Position numbers and translations under genes: made by a program
In this document: in pieces, positions 1 through 8,945 of the stretch
Numbering within the stretch: the stretch's first letter is position 1
Layout of the letters: each line of letters begins with the position of its first letter
Notes under the pieces: generated by a model
Seen by the model: the letters and a program-made list of their open reading frames with translations, nothing else
What the model was told of the DNA's origin: nothing
Databases searched by the model: none
From: a virus
Taxonomy: Duplodnaviria > Heunggongvirae > Uroviricota > Caudoviricetes
IMG/VR virus record: IMGVR_UViG_2585427729_000015
Span: 1-8,945 of that record
Direction: 5' to 3' (one strand)
Length of the DNA stretch: 8,945 nt

Positions 1-380
<380 letters not shown>

Positions 381-679
381 TAGACAAAGACACTATCACG
401 CAGTGGATACGAAGTGGACGACTTCAGGCCGCAAAGATAAATCCAGATAAACCTAAAAGCCCATATCGCATTTGCAAGTCAGACTGCATTGCGGCGCTTA
501 AGTCTGTAAGACACAATAGCGCGGTGAATGCGGTTGATGTGCAGGAGGTTAAAGCATGTCAATCAAACTACGCGGTGGCACGTGGCACTGCGATTTCGTC
601 GCGCCAGATGGATCAAGAGTTAGACGCTCACTTAAAATATCGGACAAAAGGCAAGCGCAAGAATTTCACGATCGTCTGA
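381..679 (+). pseudogene. Excisionase / AlpA-like DNA-binding gene, 5'-truncated by the IS insertion; 3' end overlaps the integrase start
   Basis: Frame of track ORF 308-679 translates from 381 as ...TITQWIRSGRLQAAKINPDKPKSPYRICKSDCIAALKS..., resembling the helix-turn-helix of phage Xis/AlpA-type excisionases. No start codon or N-terminal helix remains because the IS terminus abuts at 380. Position immediately upstream of, and co-oriented with, the integrase is the canonical xis-int arrangement. Confidence 0.5.
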
Positions 680-1716
680 AAGCAGAAGCGTGGAGAGTAA
701 AAAATCTCGGGGAATCACCGAAAAAGCTATTCAAGGAAGCCTGCATACGGTGGCTGCGTGAGAAATCGGATAAGAAGTCCATTGATGATGACAAGAGCAT
801 TATATCGTTCTGGATGTTGCACTTCAGAGAAACCATTCTCTCTAACATAACAACAGAAAAAATAATGGAGGCGGTAGACGGGATGGAAAACCGCCGCCAT
901 CGCCTGAACTGGGAGATGAGCCGGGACAGGTGTTTGCGGCTTGGCAAGCCAGTGCCGGAGTATAAACCAAAGCTGGCAAGCAAAGGAACGAAGACGCGGC
1001 ATCTGGCAATACTTCGCGCTATTCTCAATATAGCTGTTGAATGGGGATGGCTTGACAGGGCGCCCAAAATATCAACACCACGCGTTAAGAATGGACGAAT
1101 CAGATGGCTTACAGAGGAGGAATCGAAGCACCTGTTTGCAGAAATTGCTCCTCATTTCTTCCCTGTGGTCATGTTTGCAATCACGACAGGCCTTCGCCGT
1201 TCCAACGTTACAGACCTTGAGTGGTCACAGGTCGATCTGGATAAGAAAATGGCATGGATGCACCCTGATGAAACAAAAGCTGGCAATGCGATCGGAGTTC
1301 CTCTTAACGAAACCGCATGCCAGATATTAAGAAAACAGCAGGGGCTCCATAAGAGATGGGTATTTGTCCACACCAGACCTGCCTACCGAAGCGACGGAAC
1401 AAAAACAGCAGCGGTAAGGAAGATGAGAACCGACAGCAACAAGGCATGGAAGGGAGCGTTAAAGCGGGCGGGCATTAGCAACTTCCGCTTCCATGACCTG
1501 AGGCATACCTGGGCAAGCTGGCTGGTTCAGTCCGGTGTCTCTCTTCTTGCACTTAAAGAGATGGGAGGATGGGAAACTCTCGAAATGGTTCAAAGATACG
1601 CCCACCTTTCAGCCGGGCATCTCACCGAGCACGCGAGCAAAATCGATGCGATTATAAGTCGCAATGGCACAAATACGGCACAAGAGGTGAACGTGGTTTA
1701 CTTAAATGTGAGGTAA
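556..1716 (+). CDS. int: Tyrosine-type site-specific integrase (phage integrase family, P22-like)
   Basis: 386 aa with GGAGG Shine-Dalgarno at 543-547. Catalytic signature residues are visible: box I arginine in TTGLRRSN, HxxR in FRFHDLRHTWASWL, and catalytic tyrosine context EMVQRYAHL. The gene ends 14 bp before a tRNA-Thr 3' fragment (att core). Confidence 0.9.
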   Translation: MSIKLRGGTWHCDFVAPDGSRVRRSLKISDKRQAQEFHDRLKAEAWRVKNLGESPKKLFKEACIRWLREKSDKKSIDDDKSIISFWMLHFRETILSNITTEKIMEAVDGMENRRHRLNWEMSRDRCLRLGKPVPEYKPKLASKGTKTRHLAILRAILNIAVEWGWLDRAPKISTPRVKNGRIRWLTEEESKHLFAEIAPHFFPVVMFAITTGLRRSNVTDLEWSQVDLDKKMAWMHPDETKAGNAIGVPLNETACQILRKQQGLHKRWVFVHTRPAYRSDGTKTAAVRKMRTDSNKAWKGALKRAGISNFRFHDLRHTWASWLVQSGVSLLALKEMGGWETLEMVQRYAHLSAGHLTEHASKIDAIISRNGTNTAQEVNVVYLNVR

Positions 1717-1730
1717 TTTATTGATTTAAA

Positions 1731-1776
1731 TGGTGCCGATAATAGGAGTCGAACCTACGACCTTCGCATTACGAAT
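1731..1776 (-). tRNA. tRNA-Thr(CGT) 3' fragment, 46 nt (anticodon loop to CCA end); att core copy, not an intact tRNA gene
   Basis: Reverse complement of 1731-1776 is ATTCGTAATGCGAAGGTCGTAGGTTCGACTCCTATTATCGGCACCA, identical to my recollection of the 3' 46 nt of E. coli thrW including the CGT anticodon and CCA end. Sequence beyond 1776 does not continue into an anticodon stem, D-arm or acceptor 5' strand. Confidence 0.75.
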
Positions 1777-2523
1777 TATAAGAATCCGCTTCTAATTCAA
1801 AGTATTACCCCATCAACACTGTGCTCACACGTCCCACCACATCAAAACATGTAAAGCCTTGCAAGCCATTGTGAGGCCTTATGTGTCTCAGTTTTGTCCC
1901 ACCTTGTATTATGACTTGCATAGCCAATGAAGATAAACGTGACGACAAACAGCGCAGCAGTCTTCTTTTCTTTCACACTTTCCCCAATCAGCATACATAC
2001 TTTCTACCATAACTGTAGTGAATGTCTGTTATGAGCGAGCAAAAGAGATTCAATTACCGGGGAATTACTCCGACATAAGCTCTCCCAGAAACACCGGAAC
2101 AGCGATTCGCATATTCTCTTCTATACTTTCAGTCTGACCGGCTGGAGATTTCATAGCAAGAAAATGGATGCGCCAAGACCTATGCGGGAAAGAGGCTGAG
2201 GAAATAATTGCCGATAGCACTGTGCCCGCCGAAAAGTTAATCTGGCACGCAATGACGCGCGTCCTTGGGGCATCAGGAATCAGAGAGCCAACTTAACAAC
2301 CCATTATATATTATTTAACAGGACCGTTACATGTACAAAGTTCAATGATTAGTGATTCTGTGACGCCACATACAACCTAAGCCCCTGATATAAAACCAGT
2401 CTATGCAACACCTAAAAATCATATATGATAGGGTGATAAGTCAACGCGCAGTATAAAAATCAAGCTAAAAAATGCTTTCAGCATAGTGAATCTATTTCAC
2501 ACTACATAATTAAGGATGAAAAA

Positions 2524-3369
2524 ATGACTGCACCAGTAATTAGTTTTATCAATATGAAAGGTGGGGTTGGTAAAACAACTTTATGCGTTGGGATTGCTGA
2601 GTTTTTAGCCAACCATATGGGGCGCAAGGTTCTAGTTATCGATATTGATCCTCAATTTAATGCCACTCAGTCCTTAATGGGGCATTATGATCGAGTAGAA
2701 GAATATATGACTGCCCTTCGCCCTAATAATCAAACCATTCGAAAGATTTTTGAGCTTCCAAATTCATTAATGGAAGATGAAAAGAAAGTGACACCAGAAC
2801 AGGTCATTACTAAAGTTTCAGACAATCTTGATATTATCTTAGGTGATATAAACATTATCTTTGATACTAACCAAGAGGGTATTAGAATAAAAATGTTGCG
2901 TAAATTCATCACCGAAAATGACTTAAAAGAAAGTTACGACTATATCTTTATCGATAGCCCCCCAACAATCTCATTATTTACAGATACCGCACTCCTTGCT
3001 TCTGATTATTATCTTACTCCGGTTAAAATTGATCACTACTCGGTGCTTGGAGCAAGCAGTTTAAATAGCGTTATAAGAAATATGCGCACACATCATGAGA
3101 AAGAAATCAAGCAAGTCGGTTACATTTATACAAACACTGATGCTGAAATGACCAATAAAACAAGGGAAATTAAAGAACAATTCGAAAACCATACTCAATT
3201 TACAAATTTTTATTTCTTTGAAAATCAATTAACCTACGTGCGTGATTTAATGGTAGGTTATCAAGGAAATATTCCTTCTTGTTATTCAAAGTCACGCCAA
3301 GATATAGAAAAGATCTGTAACGAATTTATTAACAGAGTGGCTCACTTGGAAGGTAACACAAATGAATAA
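2524..3369 (+). CDS. ParA/MinD/Soj-family P-loop ATPase (deviant Walker A)
   Basis: 281 aa; N-terminal ISFINMKGGVGKTTL matches the deviant Walker A KGGxxK[ST]; VLVIDIDPQFNATQ (A' box) and YIFIDSPP (Walker B) are present. AAGGA Shine-Dalgarno 7 nt upstream of the ATG. Visibly AT-rich, roughly one-third GC by eye. Confidence 0.85.
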   Translation: MTAPVISFINMKGGVGKTTLCVGIAEFLANHMGRKVLVIDIDPQFNATQSLMGHYDRVEEYMTALRPNNQTIRKIFELPNSLMEDEKKVTPEQVITKVSDNLDIILGDINIIFDTNQEGIRIKMLRKFITENDLKESYDYIFIDSPPTISLFTDTALLASDYYLTPVKIDHYSVLGASSLNSVIRNMRTHHEKEIKQVGYIYTNTDAEMTNKTREIKEQFENHTQFTNFYFFENQLTYVRDLMVGYQGNIPSCYSKSRQDIEKICNEFINRVAHLEGNTNE

Positions 3370-3760
3370 ACAATTAATTAAAGCGCTCAATAAAGCTAAC
3401 AATATGCCCATGACCAAAGAAAACTTCTTAGGCTTGGTAATTATGTTGATTCTTTCAAAAGAGGTTTTTAGATCAAATTTTGATGTTAGTAAATTTATTA
3501 ACAAAACCTTCAAAATATCTTTTTTGAATTATGCTGTACGGTCAAGAACTTTGATGTGCGCTAAAATTTGCAAACATATTAATGAATTAAGTGAGAATGA
3601 CATAAAGATGGCTTATACGCATTTCTTAAACAACATTAACACATTAGACATTATTTTTAATGATGCAAATAAAACAAGCCAAAAATCCACATCTAAAAGC
3701 AAGCATGCTATAAGGAATTTAAATATTTGGATTAATGCAAATAAAAAGGAAGAAGAATAA
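3362..3760 (+). CDS. Hypothetical protein (132 aa), translationally coupled to the ParA-like gene
   Basis: Start ATG overlaps the upstream stop by 8 nt; GGAAGG Shine-Dalgarno 8 nt upstream. Lys/Asn-rich AT-rich coding sequence with no recognisable motif. Same strand and composition as its neighbours. Confidence 0.6.
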   Translation: MNKQLIKALNKANNMPMTKENFLGLVIMLILSKEVFRSNFDVSKFINKTFKISFLNYAVRSRTLMCAKICKHINELSENDIKMAYTHFLNNINTLDIIFNDANKTSQKSTSKSKHAIRNLNIWINANKKEEE

Positions 3761-4425
3761 TGCTCACGCAGGATCCCTTCAACATTGGAAGAGATGTAAA
3801 TTATTTTAGAGCGGAGGTGCAAAAGCACCTCAGAACCACTGATGAAATAAACAAATCAGTATCAATATTTAGGCAAATAAGTCTTTGTAATACAATTTTA
3901 AGTCACAATCCTAATCTAAATCACTCTTCTTATATAAAAGGTTTTATATATGATACCTTAAACTCCTTAATTGCCATTATAAAAAAAAGAGAACGGTATC
4001 TCCAACTGAACTTCCGCTCAATGGTGGAGCATGTGGCCAGAATAAGCCTCAATAAGAACTACAATGGTGGGGATTTTGACCAAACTGTACGTCGTAGAGA
4101 CTTTGACTTCTTAAAAGCCCAACAAGTCGATGAAGGCTGGTCTTATTTACATAATGTCTATATCAACGCCTGTTATTATGTTCACTCCTCCCCCCAAGCG
4201 AACCTAAATGTTACATCAACATTTATATCACTTATGGAGGGAGATTGTAATTCAACACAGCATAAAATGGTGAAAAAACTTCATGAGGTAGTATCGGCGC
4301 TGATGAGAATCATTATAAAGTATTATCATCAGCATATCTCAAACATTTTCTTTAGAAACAAAAAGGATTTAGAGAAAATAATGGGAAAAAGCCTTTATTC
4401 ATATTATACCAGCTTAGACAATTAA
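3760..4425 (+). CDS. Hypothetical protein (221 aa), translationally coupled (TAATG overlap); contains a possible HEPN-like Rx4H motif
   Basis: Start ATG shares one nucleotide with the upstream stop (TAATG at 3758-3762); AAGGAAG Shine-Dalgarno upstream. Contains RSMVEH (residues 86-91). No other recognisable domain by eye. Confidence 0.6.
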   Translation: MLTQDPFNIGRDVNYFRAEVQKHLRTTDEINKSVSIFRQISLCNTILSHNPNLNHSSYIKGFIYDTLNSLIAIIKKRERYLQLNFRSMVEHVARISLNKNYNGGDFDQTVRRRDFDFLKAQQVDEGWSYLHNVYINACYYVHSSPQANLNVTSTFISLMEGDCNSTQHKMVKKLHEVVSALMRIIIKYYHQHISNIFFRNKKDLEKIMGKSLYSYYTSLDN

Positions 4426-4462
4426 TTCTCTCATATTCATTGCGTAGAGCATAAATATCTAT

Positions 4463-4958
4463 CTAACCACCTAAAATGCCAGAAAATCTAGTTGTATACC
4501 GGTGCGAAAATATCTCGCGTTTCATCTGCCACTGCTGCTGAATGCCCTGCCCAGCGAAACAGAGTGTTTCCTTCCCGTCTTTTGCGTTGAGGTGCTCCAG
4601 CACGCTCATTAACTTTTCGCTCCCAGGACCCAGCGCGTTATCGTCGAATAGGTTAGGGCATGCTCTGACTGAAGAAGTCCCCCAGCATTACCCCGGCTTT
4701 CTGATATCGGTGTCCGTCTTTCCATATTGCATCCAGACTCCCCGTTGCTACTGCAATGATATCCCGACTGTCCTGTGTCGGGATGAGGAGCTTCACCGAC
4801 GCGTTGTTACAGTAGTACGACTCGTTCAACGCAAAGGGTATCGTGTAAAACCGATGATGACACTGCCGGCAATCAGCACTGACGTCAGCAAACGTGAGAA
4901 AGAACAGATAAGCCGAACGATTTAGGAAATGTTTGAAGAGACTGATATGTGGATGGTT
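4463..4958 (-). pseudogene. umuC-like (Y-family translesion polymerase) 3' remnant, 5'-truncated and frameshifted
   Basis: Minus-strand translation gives ...DSRDIIAVATGSLDAIWKDGHRYQKAGVMLGDFFSQ in one frame, ending at a stop at 4654-4656, then in the +1 frame ...NLFDDNALGPGSEKLMSVLEHLNAKDGKETLCFAGQGIQQQWQMKR...RYTTR... to a stop at 4463-4465. This matches my recollection of the UmuC C-terminal region. There is no in-frame start and the N-terminal roughly 300 codons are absent. Recognisable similarity is clearest for 4463 to about 4870. Confidence 0.55.
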
Positions 4959-5355
4959 TCAGTTTAAACGCCTTGAACCGTCATATTACCTAAGTACAAT
5001 CCGCTGTGACTGGCAATCATTCAATACTTGCACTATCAAAAGTGCATCAGCCAACCGCAGCACGTCTTGCATACGACCTGTCTGCGGTTTCAATCACCTC
5101 TCACCACCAGTCCCATCAATAATAATTAAACAGCGCCTAAACAAAATAAATAACAACAAGTCAACAACCTCGACAGGATGCCGATGGGATGATGAAGAGA
5201 TAAGAAAGAATAACTAGTAAAGCCCTAAAACGTCAGCGTTCAGACGCGTTTTTTACTTAACCGGTAACAAATACGTTGTATCATAGCAACATAAAATGAT
5301 TGTTCTAAATCAGATTAACTCCTCACTTTTGTACAATGTCGCTTACAGGTATACC

Positions 5356-7245
5356 ATGAAATCCGAGACGCTAACTGTCCAACAACTTTTTCAAGACCGC
5401 CGACAATACTGTGTTCCATTCTATCAACGTGCCTATGTATGGACTCAGCGAAACCAATGGTCAGCTCTACTGGAGGATATCCTAGAGAAAGCACAATCCC
5501 GGCTCTCGGGTACAAAACCAACTCCCCATTTCCTTGGTGCAGTTGTACTGGAACCTCAACCAAAAAAAGGATTATTCGGTGTAGATTCCATACATATTAT
5601 TGATGGTCAGCAACGATTGACCACTCTTCAATATGTTCTGGCATCCATCCGATTAGCATTACGTGCAACAGATCTTTCCAACTTAGAGCCTCTCATTTCG
5701 TCTTGCCTGAAAAACTCAAACGAAGACACAATGCGAAATAAAGAAGTAGAGCGCTTCAAACTGTGGCCAACTTTTCGGGATCAAACTCATTTTATTCAAA
5801 GTTTTAATGTTGAAAATATTGACGATATCCGGAATGTATTCTCTGATAGTTTCACGCAGCATGGTACGTTGCGTAAGCATTTTAATCACCCGCCATCACT
5901 AGAAGCATTATGTTTTTTTACTGAAGCCTTTATAAAGTGGATTAAAATAGAAAATCACTCACCACGAGAAAATGCTGTAGCATTAATTGAGGCTGTCTTG
6001 ACGGATCTGAAACTAGTAAGCATATTTCTCGAGGCTGAAGATGACGCTCAAATAATTTTTGAAACATTAAATGGCAGAGGTGCGGAACTTCATGCCACAG
6101 ATCTTATTCGCAATTATATTTTTATGTGCGCTGAACATGAAAATATTAATGCTGTTGAATTATATGAGAATGAGTGGAAGATCTTTGAAGATACGTACTG
6201 GTCAGAAAGACAACGTCGTGGTCGTATTAATAAACCACGCATGGAGTGGCTAGTGCATGCAACATTGCAATCAGAAAGGCAACGTGAAATCGATCTGTCT
6301 CGTCTTTACAATGAGTATCGTGATTATGTAAGTAAGGACTTGCCTTCACAACGAGCAGATCTGCAAGTAAAGCGCCTCAAACAATATGCATCACAATATA
6401 AAGAATTGGTTGGTGGTTTTGGCACAACCCCCATCTCACACTTTGGACATCGCATCGCAGCCTATGATGTGACGACACTTTATCCGCTTGCTTTGTTCAT
6501 TTCGATAGCTAACATCGCCGATGATGAGAAAGCAGCCATGTATAATGATCTTGTCTCCTACGTAGTACGAAGAGCCGTATGTGGCCTGACGCCAAAGAAT
6601 TACAACAATGTATTTATGAATGTATTGCGGCACTTGTCTAAAACAGAAATTTCCAGTGTTGAGTTACGTAATATCCTCAATAGCTTAAATGGCGAAGCCT
6701 CACGTTGGCCTGGGGACTCAGAATTTCTCAACGCTTGCATCAATGCTCCACTTTATCCTGGCAGGCTCGACGCACCGAAAATGCGCTCAATGTTAACGGA
6801 ACTTGAAAGAGAACTTTGTCGCCAAGTGAAGACAGAGAAGCCTGATGTTCCAAATCTTTCTAACCTCGATATCGATCATCTTATGCCTCAAAGTTGGTAT
6901 TCCTGTTGGCCTCTCGAAAATGGTCATATGGTGACAAATTCAGATGCTACGGTATTGAACCAAATTGTTCTGTCTGGAACCGATCTTACCCCAGAACAGC
7001 TACTGGTAAGGAAACGGCAACAAGCGATAACTACGTTGGGAAATCTAACTTTGCTTAACCTTAGCGTAAACCGTTCTGTTCAGAATGCTGTATTTCTGAA
7101 AAAACGTGATGCTCTCATCGTCCACACCAATCTACGACTGAACATTCCACTTATAGTTAAGGATAAATGGGATGAGGATGAAATCCTGGAGCGGGGTAAA
7201 AAGTTGGGGGAAATTGCATTGAAAGTATGGCCAAAACACGATTAA
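5356..7245 (+). CDS. DUF262 (ParB-like NTPase/nuclease) + DUF1524 (HNH-like) protein, GmrSD-family candidate type IV restriction endonuclease
   Basis: N-terminal YCVPFYQRAYVW and IIDGQQRLTTL (DGQQR) are the hallmark of DUF262; C-terminal NLDIDHLMPQSW and LGNLTLLNLSVNRSVQN resemble the DUF1524 His-Me finger. Start placed at the ATG at 5356 (AGG 6 nt upstream); an in-frame ATG at 5296 with no Shine-Dalgarno would add 20 residues. Confidence 0.8.
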   Translation: MKSETLTVQQLFQDRRQYCVPFYQRAYVWTQRNQWSALLEDILEKAQSRLSGTKPTPHFLGAVVLEPQPKKGLFGVDSIHIIDGQQRLTTLQYVLASIRLALRATDLSNLEPLISSCLKNSNEDTMRNKEVERFKLWPTFRDQTHFIQSFNVENIDDIRNVFSDSFTQHGTLRKHFNHPPSLEALCFFTEAFIKWIKIENHSPRENAVALIEAVLTDLKLVSIFLEAEDDAQIIFETLNGRGAELHATDLIRNYIFMCAEHENINAVELYENEWKIFEDTYWSERQRRGRINKPRMEWLVHATLQSERQREIDLSRLYNEYRDYVSKDLPSQRADLQVKRLKQYASQYKELVGGFGTTPISHFGHRIAAYDVTTLYPLALFISIANIADDEKAAMYNDLVSYVVRRAVCGLTPKNYNNVFMNVLRHLSKTEISSVELRNILNSLNGEASRWPGDSEFLNACINAPLYPGRLDAPKMRSMLTELERELCRQVKTEKPDVPNLSNLDIDHLMPQSWYSCWPLENGHMVTNSDATVLNQIVLSGTDLTPEQLLVRKRQQAITTLGNLTLLNLSVNRSVQNAVFLKKRDALIVHTNLRLNIPLIVKDKWDEDEILERGKKLGEIALKVWPKHD

Positions 7246-7265
7246 TGCAATTAATAAAATGATTA

Positions 7266-7293
7266 TAGCGGCCTTACATTAGTAAGGCCGCTA
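7266..7293. terminator. Perfect 12-bp stem / 4-nt loop hairpin; possible intrinsic terminator, orientation unclear
   Basis: TAGCGGCCTTAC-ATTA-GTAAGGCCGCTA at 7266-7293, 21 bp downstream of the GmrSD-like stop. U-rich flank is present on the minus-strand side (complement of AATAAAATGAT), not clearly on the plus side. Confidence 0.4.
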
Positions 7294-7495
7294 CTCACTA
7301 TTAAATCCTTTAATTTGCAATAAGAACAGCAGTGTCAGCCCTAGGTTTCGGACTTTGTACCGCTTATCTTGTCTTCAAAAATCAGCTCGCATCCTGCACA
7401 GCTCAACGCATTACGTTGTAGATCGGTGTTCTGGTCATTTGTTGATACGCGTACATAGCCAATAAGCATGGTAGCGCCCCCTGACAAAAGCAGGA

Positions 7496-7846
7496 ATGAT
7501 GCCATTTGCTCGTTATTTCTGCATTTTCATAAATGTTGGTTTAAGAGCAAGCGGGCAGTACACCGATAATTTGTTATTTACAGGTCCTGATGGTCTTAAG
7601 ATTCAGGTGTTTCGCCGGACGCTCGCAAATTTGACTACTGTCGGTGTAGTAAATTCTGTGCCAGTGACTTTCCCTGTCCCGTTCCCTGTTAATTGCTGGG
7701 GCGTTTTTTCTACCAAATTAACATGGGTTCAGATAACTAACTCATGCGAGTGGGTAAGCAATACAGGATTTACCGCTCAGGTCATGATGAATATTGCTGT
7801 AAATACAAACACCTCAGACGCTATGTTTTTAGCTATAGGATATTAA
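7496..7846 (+). CDS. Tail-fibre C-terminal (variable) segment, probably a silent or truncated alternative distal tail-fibre coding block
   Basis: Frame is open only from 7475; no convincing ribosome-binding site for the ATG at 7496. Stop at 7844-7846 lies 1 nt before the ATG of a tail-fibre-assembly gene, the typical stf-tfa junction. Sequence is Thr/Asn/Val/Pro-rich (VTFPVPFPVN). Confidence 0.45.
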   Translation: MMPFARYFCIFINVGLRASGQYTDNLLFTGPDGLKIQVFRRTLANLTTVGVVNSVPVTFPVPFPVNCWGVFSTKLTWVQITNSCEWVSNTGFTAQVMMNIAVNTNTSDAMFLAIGY

Positions 7847-7847
7847 T

Positions 7848-8288
7848 ATGAATCGTTTTGTGTTCAGTCCATCTGAGTCCCGTTTTTATGCCATCGAGTG
7901 GCAGGCTGATTATGTTGATAATAATTGTTGGCCGCATGATGCCATTAACGTTAGTGACAGCATTTATTATGAGTTTTCCGGCACTCCCCCTACAGGTAAG
8001 CAACTTATAACTTTAAATAACATGCCATCATGGGGTGATATTCCTCCACCTACACGAGAAGAATTAATTGTCACCGCTGATGTCGAGAAGCAAAAAAGAA
8101 TAGATTTAGCCAATGATTACATGAACGGTAAGCAATGGCCTGGTAAAGCAGCTATTGGTCGTCTGAAAGGTGAGGAACTGGCACAATATAATTTGTGGCT
8201 GGATTATCTGGACGCACTGGAGCTGGTCGATACCGCCAGTGCGCCAGATATTGAATGGCCTACGCCTCCGGCAGTTCAGGCCAGATGA
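7848..8288 (+). CDS. Phage tail fibre assembly protein (Tfa/U-like chaperone)
   Basis: 146 aa with the characteristic C-terminal region ...YNLWLDYLDALELVDTASAPDIEWPTPP shared by lambdoid/Mu/P2 tail-fibre assembly proteins. AGGA Shine-Dalgarno 7 nt upstream. Confidence 0.75.
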   Translation: MNRFVFSPSESRFYAIEWQADYVDNNCWPHDAINVSDSIYYEFSGTPPTGKQLITLNNMPSWGDIPPPTREELIVTADVEKQKRIDLANDYMNGKQWPGKAAIGRLKGEELAQYNLWLDYLDALELVDTASAPDIEWPTPPAVQAR

Positions 8289-8862
8289 CATCCGGCGCGG
8301 TGCTCGTATCTGTTGCTGTCACCGCGTCAATGTAATCCAGCACAGTGTTAAGGCTGGTTGTTTCTGCCTGCGTCAGTTTACGTCCGGCCTGCAATTTCAG
8401 CTGAATCAGACTGATTGAATCCATTACAGTATCAATCAGTGACTGGCGCTGTGCTTCTGCTGCATCTACTGCGGCGCTATGCTGTGCTTCGGTATCCGTC
8501 ACCCATTTCTCACCATCCCATTTATCGTATGGCGTTAACGGGGCGATAGTGGTTGTATTATCAGGGTAATCACCCGGAACTGTGATTTCTTTTGATTCTC
8601 CTGTTTCGGTGCTAAAGACGATTTCACCGCGATAGTCTGGCACATATTCCCATGAGTTAAAATCTACAGATCGGCAGATTGCATAACCAGCTTTGTATGT
8701 GACAGGGGCATCTAAACAGGAATATGCAGGGATACCGACACCAACGGCAAGATATTCAGTTGATGTGGAAATATATTCCCGTGTTTCACCATCATAGTTA
8801 TAGACGGTAATATTCCCCGCCTTTGTAGCAATAAACTCGCTATTTAATACAGCGTTATCCAT
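8260..8862 (-). CDS. Phage tail fibre assembly protein (Tfa/U'-like), convergent with the plus-strand tfa
   Basis: 200 aa; ...PYDKWDGEKWVTDTEAQ... and C-terminal ...DAVTATDTSTAPDVIWPELPEA match the Tfa family pattern. GAGGG Shine-Dalgarno upstream; start ATG overlaps the stop of an upstream minus-strand ORF (TAATG). Confidence 0.8.
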   Translation of the reverse strand: MDNAVLNSEFIATKAGNITVYNYDGETREYISTSTEYLAVGVGIPAYSCLDAPVTYKAGYAICRSVDFNSWEYVPDYRGEIVFSTETGESKEITVPGDYPDNTTTIAPLTPYDKWDGEKWVTDTEAQHSAAVDAAEAQRQSLIDTVMDSISLIQLKLQAGRKLTQAETTSLNTVLDYIDAVTATDTSTAPDVIWPELPEA

Positions 8863-8945
8863 TATGCAGCCCTCACGATATAGTTAAATGCAATATTCCG
8901 TGGACGGGTTTCATTTATCCCATATGCTGTTGTTCTCTGATTCCC
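8862..8945 (-). CDS. 3' end of a minus-strand tail-fibre gene (partial; continues beyond the window end)
   Basis: Open frame across the final 27 codons (...GNQRTTAYGINETRPRNIAFNYIVRAA-stop) with its TAA overlapping the ATG of the downstream tfa. Too short for independent confirmation. Confidence 0.4.
   Translation of the reverse strand, partial: GNQRTTAYGINETRPRNIAFNYIVRAA

What the first reader, a model, noticed from the sequence alone, without database searches (positions are those of the whole stretch)
2524..4425. AT-rich three-gene cassette (ParA/MinD-type ATPase plus two orphan proteins): candidate undescribed defence or abortive-infection module
Three co-oriented genes are tightly coupled: an 8-nt overlap at 3362-3369 and a TAATG overlap at 3758-3762. 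Their composition is far more AT-rich than everything around them, which indicates separate horizontal acquisition. The first product is an unambiguous ParA/MinD-family ATPase, but the partners do not look like a ParB or centromere-binding protein, and I see no parS-like repeat array nearby. The cassette sits between an att core and a tail-fibre module, beside a GmrSD-like restriction gene, which is the kind of prophage locus where anti-phage systems accumulate. I do not recognise a described defence system with this ParA-like plus two-orphan architecture.
Basis: partly seen in the sequence, partly recalled or inferred. Interest (0 to 1): 0.8.

Follow-up and report, generated by a model that had tools for sequence, protein, structure and literature searches.

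The report
ParA-type ATPase plus HEPN-like effector cassette
This AT-rich three-gene cassette is real and is a widely spread, uncharacterised module of mobile elements that pairs a ParA/MinD-type ATPase with a small helical protein and a HEPN-like (probable RNase) protein, so it looks like a toxin/abortive-infection-type conflict system and not a DNA-partition locus, but its function is untested.

Summary
There are three co-oriented, overlapping ORFs (2524-3369, 3362-3760, 3760-4425) at 33% GC against 44% for the rest of the window.

- **Gene 1** is a ParA/MinD-type ATPase with intact catalytic motifs. Its clade is almost absent from 72,556 plasmids.
- **Gene 2** is a small all-helical protein with no informative fold match.

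The same triad, in the same order, recurs from 98% down to about 25% identity. It occurs in Enterobacterales, Vreelandella, Fusobacterium, and Streptococcus and Lactococcus temperate phages, with a likely diverged copy on a Clostridium plasmid. It always sits in cargo positions of prophages, P4-like satellites or integrative elements, and twice lies directly beside known defence genes. No centromere repeats or DNA-binding partner were found.

PADLOC 2.0 and the searchable literature describe no such system. The nearest precedent is a 2013 computational prediction of ParA/Soj-HEPN toxin-antitoxin dyads.

Best reading: a three-component HEPN-effector conflict module (Abi/TA type). Function is inferred, not shown.

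The parts
2300..2523 (+). AT-rich upstream region with Shine-Dalgarno AAGGA (2512-2516). It is the presumed promoter region of the operon.
   Evidence: Sequence. Only weak sigma-70-like matches, no more than chance. No upstream element is conserved across eight homologous loci apart from the ribosome-binding site. No repeat array.
2524..3369 (+). Gene 1: ParA/MinD-type (deviant Walker A) ATPase, 281 aa, with no N-terminal DNA-binding domain.
   Evidence: Pfam AAA_31 7.9e-38, CbiA 7e-17. The closest solved relatives are Soj/ParA at E 1.5e-18. N10-M-K12-G-G-V-G-K17-T-T, D40xD42PQ and D139/D144 are invariant across nine triad-linked homologues down to 38% identity. All NCBIfam partition equivalogs score far below their cut-offs.
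3362..3760 (+). Gene 2: 132-aa all-helical protein of unknown fold. Proposed adaptor or regulator between the ATPase and gene 3.
3760..4425 (+). Gene 3: 221-aa HEPN-like helical protein, the predicted effector (probable RNase). Motifs are R86-S-x-[IV]-E90-[NH]-x2-R94 and Y134-x3-C138-x-[YF]-[VI]-H142.
3362..3369 (+). 8-nt overlap of gene 1 stop and gene 2 start (ATGAATAA), suggesting translational coupling.
   Evidence: The same kind of 8-nt overlap occurs in L002, L006, L009, L012 and L025.
3758..3762 (+). TAATG stop/start overlap of gene 2 and gene 3.
   Evidence: The same junction is present in L002, L003 and L012.

Best explanation
The cassette is a self-contained, horizontally mobile three-component conflict module of the toxin/abortive-infection type, carried as cargo by prophages, phage satellites and integrative elements.

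Gene 3 is the effector. It is a divergent HEPN-fold protein, most likely a metal-independent RNase that uses the invariant His142 with Arg86/Glu90/Arg94. Gene 1 is a ParA/MinD-type ATPase that acts as an ATP-dependent dimerisation switch. It either holds the effector in check or licenses it. Gene 2 is the small partner that couples the ATPase to the effector, in the way ParB, MinE or McdB couple to their ATPases. A trigger, most plausibly infection by another phage or entry of a competing element, would change the ATPase state and free or activate the HEPN effector. That would arrest the cell's translation and block spread of the invader.

**Inferred:** RNase activity, which protein senses, the direction of control (ATPase as inhibitor or activator), and the anti-phage outcome.
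For: 1. **The triad is conserved.** ParA, then a protein of about 120-140 aa, then one of about 220-250 aa, in the same order and mostly with overlapping junctions. It was found in:
   - E. coli: 52 of 5,426 complete genomes at 99% identity or more, and 16 more at 60-80%;
   - a second E. coli lineage;
   - Erwinia and Vreelandella;
   - Dickeya, Yersinia and Cronobacter-type prophages, and a P4-like satellite;
   - a low-GC assembly with ParA at 50%, g2 at 31% and g3 at 25% identity;
   - Fusobacterium;
   - Streptococcus phage Javan1 and Lactococcus phage PLg-TB25;
   - a probable diverged copy on a C. tetani plasmid, where g2 matches and the third gene keeps the R-S-x-I-E motif.
2. **Selection.** dN is far below dS for all three genes.
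4. **The ATPase is intact.** Its catalytic motifs are invariant.
5. **The cassette sits in cargo positions:**
   - next to the att core and GmrSD in the window;
   - next to type I REase, ZorC and ZorD in L012;
   - between repressor and integrase in Javan1;
   - directly after the integrase in lambdoid prophages and in an integrative, mobilisable-type element;
   - in a P4-like satellite.
6. **Precedent.** ParA/Soj-HEPN gene pairs were predicted to be toxin-antitoxin systems (PMC3710099).
Against: - There is no experimental evidence of toxicity, RNase activity or phage protection.
- The canonical Rx4-6H is not conserved. The R86-x4-H91 of this subclade is N at position 91 in 67 of 88 members, and the position 4-6 residues before H142 is Cys, not Arg. 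The protein could therefore be non-catalytic.
- I had no model coordinates, so I could not check that the invariant residues cluster in space.
- Most neighbours of the cassette are unknown genes rather than recognised defence genes.
- ParA is disrupted while g2 and g3 stay intact in three genomes. That argues against a simple 'ParA is an essential antitoxin' model, unless the insertions are polar on the downstream genes.
Confidence: 0.55

Rival explanations
1. A pure addiction (toxin-antitoxin) module. It would stabilise the carrier element through post-segregational killing, with the HEPN-like protein as toxin and ParA (with or without gene 2) as antitoxin, and would have no role in phage defence.
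For: This is the model proposed for ParA/Soj-HEPN dyads in PMC3710099. The cassette always sits on mobile elements, often beside the integrase. Another toxin-antitoxin pair (TacAT) lies in the same Dickeya island.
Against: ParA is broken by IS903B, by IS1 or by a frameshift while g2 and g3 remain intact. That is unexpected for an essential antitoxin, although polarity could explain it. Many toxin-antitoxin systems also act in defence, so the two readings are not exclusive. Two loci sit directly beside defence genes.
Confidence: 0.2
2. A partition or positioning system. The ParA would segregate or position the excised prophage, satellite, integrative element or phage-plasmid, with gene 2 or gene 3 as an unconventional centromere-binding adaptor.
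For: Gene 1 is a bona fide ParA/Soj relative and PHROGs label the family 'ParA-like partition protein'. One probable diverged copy lies on a 51.8-kb C. tetani plasmid. Some ICEs are known from the literature to need a Soj-like ATPase for maintenance of the excised form (my own knowledge, not tested here).
Confidence: 0.05
3. A non-catalytic regulatory module of the carrier element. The HEPN-like protein would be an RNA- or ligand-binding regulator, as MtlR and other motif-less HEPNs are, and the ParA switch would control lysogeny, excision or superinfection exclusion rather than killing.
Against: Four polar or charged residues (R86, E90, Y134, H142) are invariant over 88 sequences at about 20% identity. 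That pattern is typical of an active site. The cassette moves between unrelated element types (lambdoid phages, a P4-like satellite, integrative elements, Gram-positive siphophages) whose regulatory circuits differ.
Confidence: 0.12

Closest known systems
ParA/Soj-like ATPase + HEPN (MAE_18760 family) gene dyads predicted as toxin-antitoxin systems (Anantharaman et al. 2013, PMC3710099)
   Same: A small ParA/Soj-type ATPase is encoded immediately next to a HEPN-fold protein on mobile or defence-type loci. The proposed logic is the same: the ATPase controls a HEPN RNase toxin.
   Different: This cassette has three genes with an obligatory small middle protein, not a dyad. The HEPN-like protein lacks the canonical Rx4-6H that the paper lists as conserved in MAE_18760. 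No MAE_18760 sequence was available, so family identity could not be tested. The prediction was never, to my knowledge, tested experimentally.
HepT/MntA (type VII) and other minimal HEPN toxin-antitoxin/Abi systems (e.g. SO_3166/3165, PDB 5yep; AbiV; AF0298-type HEPN, PDB 2hsb)
   Different: There is no MNT nucleotidyltransferase partner. The partners are a ParA-type ATPase and a novel helical protein. No sequence similarity to any Pfam HEPN family was detected. Extra N- and C-terminal helices make the protein about 220 aa long.
Type Ib ParABS / ParFG plasmid partition systems
   Same: Gene 1 has the deviant Walker A, switch and Walker B motifs and the size of small ParA/Soj/ParF ATPases. It comes first in a tightly coupled operon with a small partner.
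   Different: There is no centromere repeat, no DNA-binding partner and no association with plasmids. All NCBIfam partition equivalogs fall far below their cut-offs, for example ParA_partition at 77 bits against 180.

Membership tests
ParABS / ParFG-type partition locus | Walker-type ParA ATPase with deviant Walker A | tested here: met
   KGGVGKT at residues 12-18. Pfam AAA_31 7.9e-38. Soj is the closest solved structure.
ParABS / ParFG-type partition locus | Adjacent centromere-binding partner (ParB HTH or ParG/omega RHH) | tested here: not met
ParABS / ParFG-type partition locus | Iterated centromere (parS/parC) repeats next to the operon | tested here: not met
   No family with more than two copies was found in the window or in the flanks of five other loci, and there is no conserved upstream element.
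ParABS / ParFG-type partition locus | Carried mainly by plasmids or other low-copy extrachromosomal replicons | tested here: not met
   Gene 3 matches 1 record of 72,556 plasmids, and that record is an excised lambdoid prophage. ParA matches 5 records at E 1e-20 or better, of which 3 are chromosomes filed as plasmids.
HEPN superfamily | [quoted passage not shown] | tested here: inconclusive
HEPN superfamily | Rx4-6H motif at the end of helix 3 | tested here: not met
   H142 is invariant and lies at the end of helix 127-142. The residue 4-6 positions upstream is C138, N or A, not Arg. R86-x4-H91 lies in the preceding helix, and position 91 is N in 67 of 88 members. Variant motifs are known in AbiV, AF0298 and paREP families (PMC3710099).
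HEPN superfamily | Conserved acidic residue in helix 2, typically Ex3[KR] | tested here: met
   E90 is invariant and R94 is present in 80 of 88 members (K in 4 more), within helix 78-96.
HEPN superfamily | Metal-independent endoribonuclease activity | not testable with these tools
   Needs biochemistry.
ParA/Soj-HEPN (MAE_18760) predicted TA dyad | HEPN protein belongs to the MAE_18760 family | not testable with these tools
   No MAE_18760 sequence or profile was available. The paper's supplement holds only links. The listed conservation of Rx4-6H in that family is not seen here.
ParA/Soj-HEPN (MAE_18760) predicted TA dyad | Two-gene ATPase + HEPN arrangement | tested here: not met
   A third protein of about 120-140 aa lies between them in every complete locus examined.
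Any system in PADLOC-DB 2.0.0 | Significant full-length match of the component proteins to a system model | tested here: not met
   There are only P-loop-level hits (PDC-M28B 1.9e-6 over residues 3-42) and a 15-bit hit for gene 2, and none for gene 3. GmrSD next door scores 1437 bits as a positive control.
HepT/MntA type VII TA | MNT nucleotidyltransferase antitoxin adjacent to the HEPN toxin | tested here: not met
   The neighbours are a ParA-type ATPase and a helical protein, with no NTP_transf domain.

The most novel reading that the evidence does not exclude
The triad is a previously unrecognised, cross-phylum immune or inter-element competition system. A ParA/MinD-type ATPase, a class otherwise known for positioning cargo on the nucleoid or membrane, would be repurposed as the sensor or switch. 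It might read out invading DNA, nucleoid disruption, or a competitor's partition or replication machinery. Through a dedicated adaptor it would release a HEPN-like RNase with a non-canonical active site (R-S-x-I-E-x3-R ... Y-x3-C-x3-H).
Probability: 0.35. Interest if true: 0.75.

Novelty: new variant of a known kind. Interest (0 to 1): 0.58.

Why it matters
If it is functional as proposed, it would add a new regulatory principle to HEPN-based abortive-infection and toxin-antitoxin systems: control by a ParA/MinD dimerisation switch. It would also give the first testable example of the ParA/Soj-HEPN association predicted in 2013.

The work defines a family signature:
- a distinct ParA clade;
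- a middle protein of about 130 aa with an S-R-T-L core;
- a protein of about 220 aa with R-S-x-I-E-x3-[RK] and Y-x3-[CS]-x2-V-H.

That signature lets annotation pipelines stop calling these genes 'plasmid partition protein'. The module occurs in pathogens (E. coli, Klebsiella, Enterobacter, Yersinia, Salmonella, C. tetani, Fusobacterium) and in dairy and streptococcal temperate phages. A defence role would therefore bear on phage therapy and on starter-culture phage resistance.

Tried and rejected
- **Partition locus:** rejected. No repeats, no DNA-binding partner and no plasmid association.
- **Known defence system:** PADLOC 2.0 has no match. Pfam, NCBIfam and PHROGs give no function for genes 2 and 3.
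- **Canonical HEPN motif:** I first read R86-x4-H91 as the HEPN motif. The 88-member alignment shows position 91 is usually Asn, and the secondary-structure map puts that motif in helix 2. I re-interpreted it as R...E-x3-R plus H142.
- **Sequence links of gene 3 to solved structures:** none with either the narrow or the broad profile. Foldseek/PDB was not significant. The afdb50 library was unavailable.
- **Gene 2 fold search:** uninformative.
- **Literature:** searches for accession numbers, ParA-like + HEPN + anti-phage, SIMIBI and AAA_31 found no description of the system. Three of these queries were poorly targeted and returned noise. Brenes & Laub 2025 (E. coli prophage defence screen) is not held, so I cannot exclude that it or DefenseFinder updates after 2023 list this system.
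- **IMG/VR scan with the broad alignment:** The genome-contig scan found only 2 species representatives.
- **Disruption pattern as a test of toxin against antitoxin:** 3 hits in ParA and 1 in gene 3. It is inconclusive because insertions in the first gene are probably polar.
Full report
**1. Observation**

The window has three co-oriented ORFs at 2524-3369 (281 aa), 3362-3760 (132 aa) and 3760-4425 (221 aa).
- The junctions are ATGAATAA, an 8-nt overlap at 3362-3369, and TAATG, a 1-nt overlap at 3758-3762.
- An AAGGA ribosome-binding site lies 7 nt before the first ATG.
- The cassette is 33.1% GC against 44.1% for the rest of the window, and gene 2 is only 27.1%.
- The stated surroundings are correct. 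A partial tRNA-Thr gene (att core) lies at about 1721-1776 (ARAGORN finds no complete tRNA). A GmrSD type IV restriction gene lies at 5296-7245 (Pfam GmrSD_N/C, PADLOC mREase_IV at 1437 bits). Tail-fibre assembly genes follow.

**2. The three proteins**

Gene 1 is a ParA/MinD-type ATPase.
- Pfam AAA_31 scores 7.9e-38 and CbiA 7e-17.
- The closest solved relatives are Soj/ParA at 1.5e-18.
- In nine homologues that are each linked to the other two genes, and that go down to 38% identity, three motifs are invariant: the deviant Walker A (N-M-K-G-G-V-G-K-T-T), D-x-D-P-Q and the Walker B aspartates. The ATPase is therefore expected to be active.
- It is not a standard partition ParA. Every NCBIfam partition equivalog scores far below its cut-off.
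- Only five records of 72,556 plasmids match at E 1e-20 or better. Three of those are chromosomes filed as plasmids and one is an excised lambdoid prophage.

Gene 2 has no Pfam, NCBIfam or PADLOC family. Its only family is PHROG 6264, of unknown function.
- The AlphaFold model built on 38 sequences has pLDDT 81 and is all-helical with a disordered linker.

Gene 3 (PHROG 7540, unknown function) gives a confident model with pLDDT 89.5 and pTM 0.87.
- A profile search of 1.84 billion representatives found 102 clusters of proteins, mostly about 215-235 aa long.
- In an alignment of 88 of them at 16-47% identity, R86, E90, Y134 and H142 are invariant. K38, D65, S87, R94 and C138 are nearly so.
- I first took R86-x4-H91 for the HEPN Rx4H motif. 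Position 91 is Asn in 67 of 88 members.
- Mapping onto the model's helices and the description in Anantharaman et al. 2013 gives a better reading. E90-x3-R94 is the 'Ex3[KR]' motif of HEPN helix 2. Residues 97-126 are the usual helix-2/helix-3 insert. Invariant H142 sits at the end of helix 3, where the catalytic His lies. Arg is replaced by Cys138 four residues upstream.
- That paper notes similar departures in AbiV, in AF0298 (my top hit) and in paREP families.

Caveats on gene 3:
- Foldseek against PDB finds nothing significant (best E 0.17; HepT appears only at E about 1).
- No sequence-level link exists to Pfam HEPN families or to PDB.
- I had no coordinates to confirm that the invariant residues cluster.
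- I put HEPN-superfamily membership at roughly 0.7 and catalytic activity lower.

**3. Conservation as a unit**

The cassette occurs at 99% identity or more in 52 of 5,426 complete E. coli genomes, and a divergent lineage occurs in 16 more. The same gene order, mostly with the same overlapping junctions, is found in the following places.

| Locus | Host or element | Context |
|---|---|---|
| L002 | E. coli, circular lambdoid phage filed as a plasmid | integrase, then triad, then tail fibres; g3 38% identical |
| L003 | Erwinia | island carrying an antirestriction-type gene (my reading of its sequence); ParA frameshifted |
| L004 | Vreelandella (56% GC flanks) | integrase, then triad, then a relaxase-like gene (my reading) |
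| L005 | Dickeya | island after a P4-type integrase; ParA split by IS1 |
| L006-8 | Yersinia | next to a giant MuF/LPD polyvalent protein |
| L009-11 | P4-like satellite | integrase, AlpA, D5 primase, then triad |
| L012-14 | Cronobacter-type lambdoid prophages | integrase, then triad |
| L017 | low-GC assembly | with serine recombinase, FtsK and Phage_rep_O; ParA 50%, g2 31%, g3 25% identity |
| L024 | Fusobacterium vincentii | chromosome filed as a plasmid |
| L026 | second E. coli lineage | chromosome filed as a plasmid |
| L020 | Streptococcus phage Javan1 | between repressor and integrase; g2 unannotated |
| L021 | Lactococcus phage PLg-TB25 | third gene 251 aa |
| L025 | C. tetani 51.8-kb plasmid | beside a serine recombinase and ImmA/HTH genes; third gene 253 aa |

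- The longer third genes of L021 and L025 fall below the HMM threshold but keep R-S-x-I-E-x3-[RK]. L021 and L026 also keep the downstream Y-x3-[CS]-x2-V-H by pattern search, and the L025 sequence reads YSDLSEIVH.
- dN is far below a saturated dS for all three genes.
- The cassette stays at 30-35% GC in every host, as expected for a module that moves horizontally.

**4. What it is not**

It is not a partition locus.
- No repeat family with more than two copies lies in or beside the cassette in six independent loci.
- No upstream element is conserved apart from the ribosome-binding site.
- There is no DNA-binding partner and no plasmid association.

PADLOC 2.0 recognises nothing beyond P-loop-level similarity.

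**5. What it most likely is**

A HEPN-like protein with an invariant polar constellation is coupled to an NTPase and a small partner. The module is carried as cargo at integrase-proximal, att-proximal or lysogeny-module positions of unrelated mobile elements. Twice it lies immediately beside recognised defence genes: GmrSD in the window, and type I REase with ZorC and ZorD in L012. This is the signature of a toxin/abortive-infection-type conflict system.

My model has three parts.
- Gene 3 is the effector, a probable RNase.
- The ParA-type ATPase is an ATP-dependent dimer switch that restrains or licenses it.
- Gene 2 is the coupling partner, analogous to ParB, MinE or McdB partners of this ATPase class (established knowledge of ParA/MinD ATPases; inference here).

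The trigger and the polarity of control are unknown. ParA is knocked out with g2 and g3 intact in three genomes, and g3 is knocked out in one. That speaks weakly against 'ParA is an essential antitoxin', but polarity makes it inconclusive.

The rivals are a pure addiction module (0.2), a non-catalytic regulatory module (0.12) and partition (0.05).

**6. Comparison with the known**

The nearest precedent is the computational prediction of ParA/Soj + HEPN (MAE_18760 family) dyads as toxin-antitoxin systems (PMC3710099).
- This cassette differs in having an obligatory third component and a non-canonical motif.
- Membership of MAE_18760 could not be tested.
- Structurally it resembles minimal HEPN toxins (HepT, AF0298-type) but has no MNT partner.
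- Literature searches found no experimental description. Brenes & Laub 2025 and defence catalogues after 2023 could not be consulted.

**7. Verdict**

The feature is real, conserved and cross-phylum. The cassette is a unit, it is not a partition locus, and its anatomy is that of a conflict system. Defence itself remains unshown, and the architecture has a published computational precedent.

I rate it a new variant of a known kind (HEPN-effector TA/Abi modules), of moderate to good interest as a well-defined candidate for experiment.

Noticed in passing
window 1721-1776: A partial tRNA-Thr gene (3' part, minus strand) immediately after the integrase gene (556-1716). The same bases are annotated tRNA-Thr in many E. 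coli genomes. ARAGORN finds no complete tRNA, so it is an att-core remnant.
   Followed up: partly
window 1-1661 versus 1662-8945: No E. coli complete genome carries the whole window contiguously. Matches to cassette-bearing genomes begin at 1662-1733. The junction between the IS-fragment/integrase part and the cassette part is therefore specific to the source strain.
   Followed up: no
window about 2156-2296, 4463-4829 (-), and on to about 5200: Pseudogene debris surrounds the cassette. Homologous E. coli loci annotate fragments of an SOS-response-associated peptidase, a UmuC C-terminal DUF4113, DinI and an HTH protein. The next cargo gene varies: GmrSD in the window, serine acetyltransferase in strain PM4, ISCro1 in SCEC020023. 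This points to a hot spot with repeated cargo turnover.
   Followed up: partly
window 5296-7245: An intact GmrSD-family type IV (modification-dependent) restriction enzyme, with a full-length PADLOC mREase_IV match of 1437 bits.
   Followed up: partly
window 7341-8862: A 54-aa N-terminal fragment resembling a Pin/Hin-type invertase (7341-7505, minus strand) is followed by two opposed, overlapping tail-fibre-assembly genes (7848-8288 plus strand, 8260-8862 minus strand). It looks like the remnant of an invertible tail-fibre host-range segment.
   Followed up: no
window 6-344 (-): A 112-aa ORF that I read as an IS3/IS911-family orfA transposase fragment, at the left edge of the window.
   Followed up: no
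L020 4372-4740 (Streptococcus phage Javan1, MK448665): An unannotated ORF homologous to gene 2 (HMM E 5.5e-24) lies between the annotated 'partitioning protein ParA' and a 226-aa hypothetical protein that is a gene 3 homologue. The deposited annotation therefore misses one gene and mislabels the module as partition.
   Followed up: yes
L021 4734-5489 (Lactococcus phage PLg-TB25); L025 5275-6036 (C. tetani plasmid): The third gene is longer (251-253 aa) and falls below the gene 3 HMM threshold. Both keep R-S-x-I-E-x3-[RK], and both carry a downstream Y...V-H stretch (YTDLSGNVH in L021, YSDLSEIVH in L025). This is a more diverged effector subfamily of the same system.
   Followed up: partly
L022 (E. 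coli SCEC020023), L005 (Dickeya), L003 (Erwinia), L023 (E. coli NRZ95651): Four independent inactivations of the cassette: IS903B in ParA, IS1 in ParA, a frameshift in ParA, and IS1A in gene 3. This may indicate a fitness cost of the intact module.
   Followed up: partly
L012 9387-16420: In one lambdoid prophage the triad is followed directly by a type I restriction R subunit and by genes matching ZorC and ZorD (the last also matches DpdE), so the neighbourhood is a defence island.
   Followed up: partly
PLSDB records NZ_CP084075, NZ_CP154629, NZ_OL790696, NZ_CP148393: Three 'plasmid' records of 2.1-4.8 Mb are evidently chromosomes. One 44.6-kb 'plasmid' is a circular lambdoid phage genome. 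Counts of plasmid hits must be corrected for this.
   Followed up: partly
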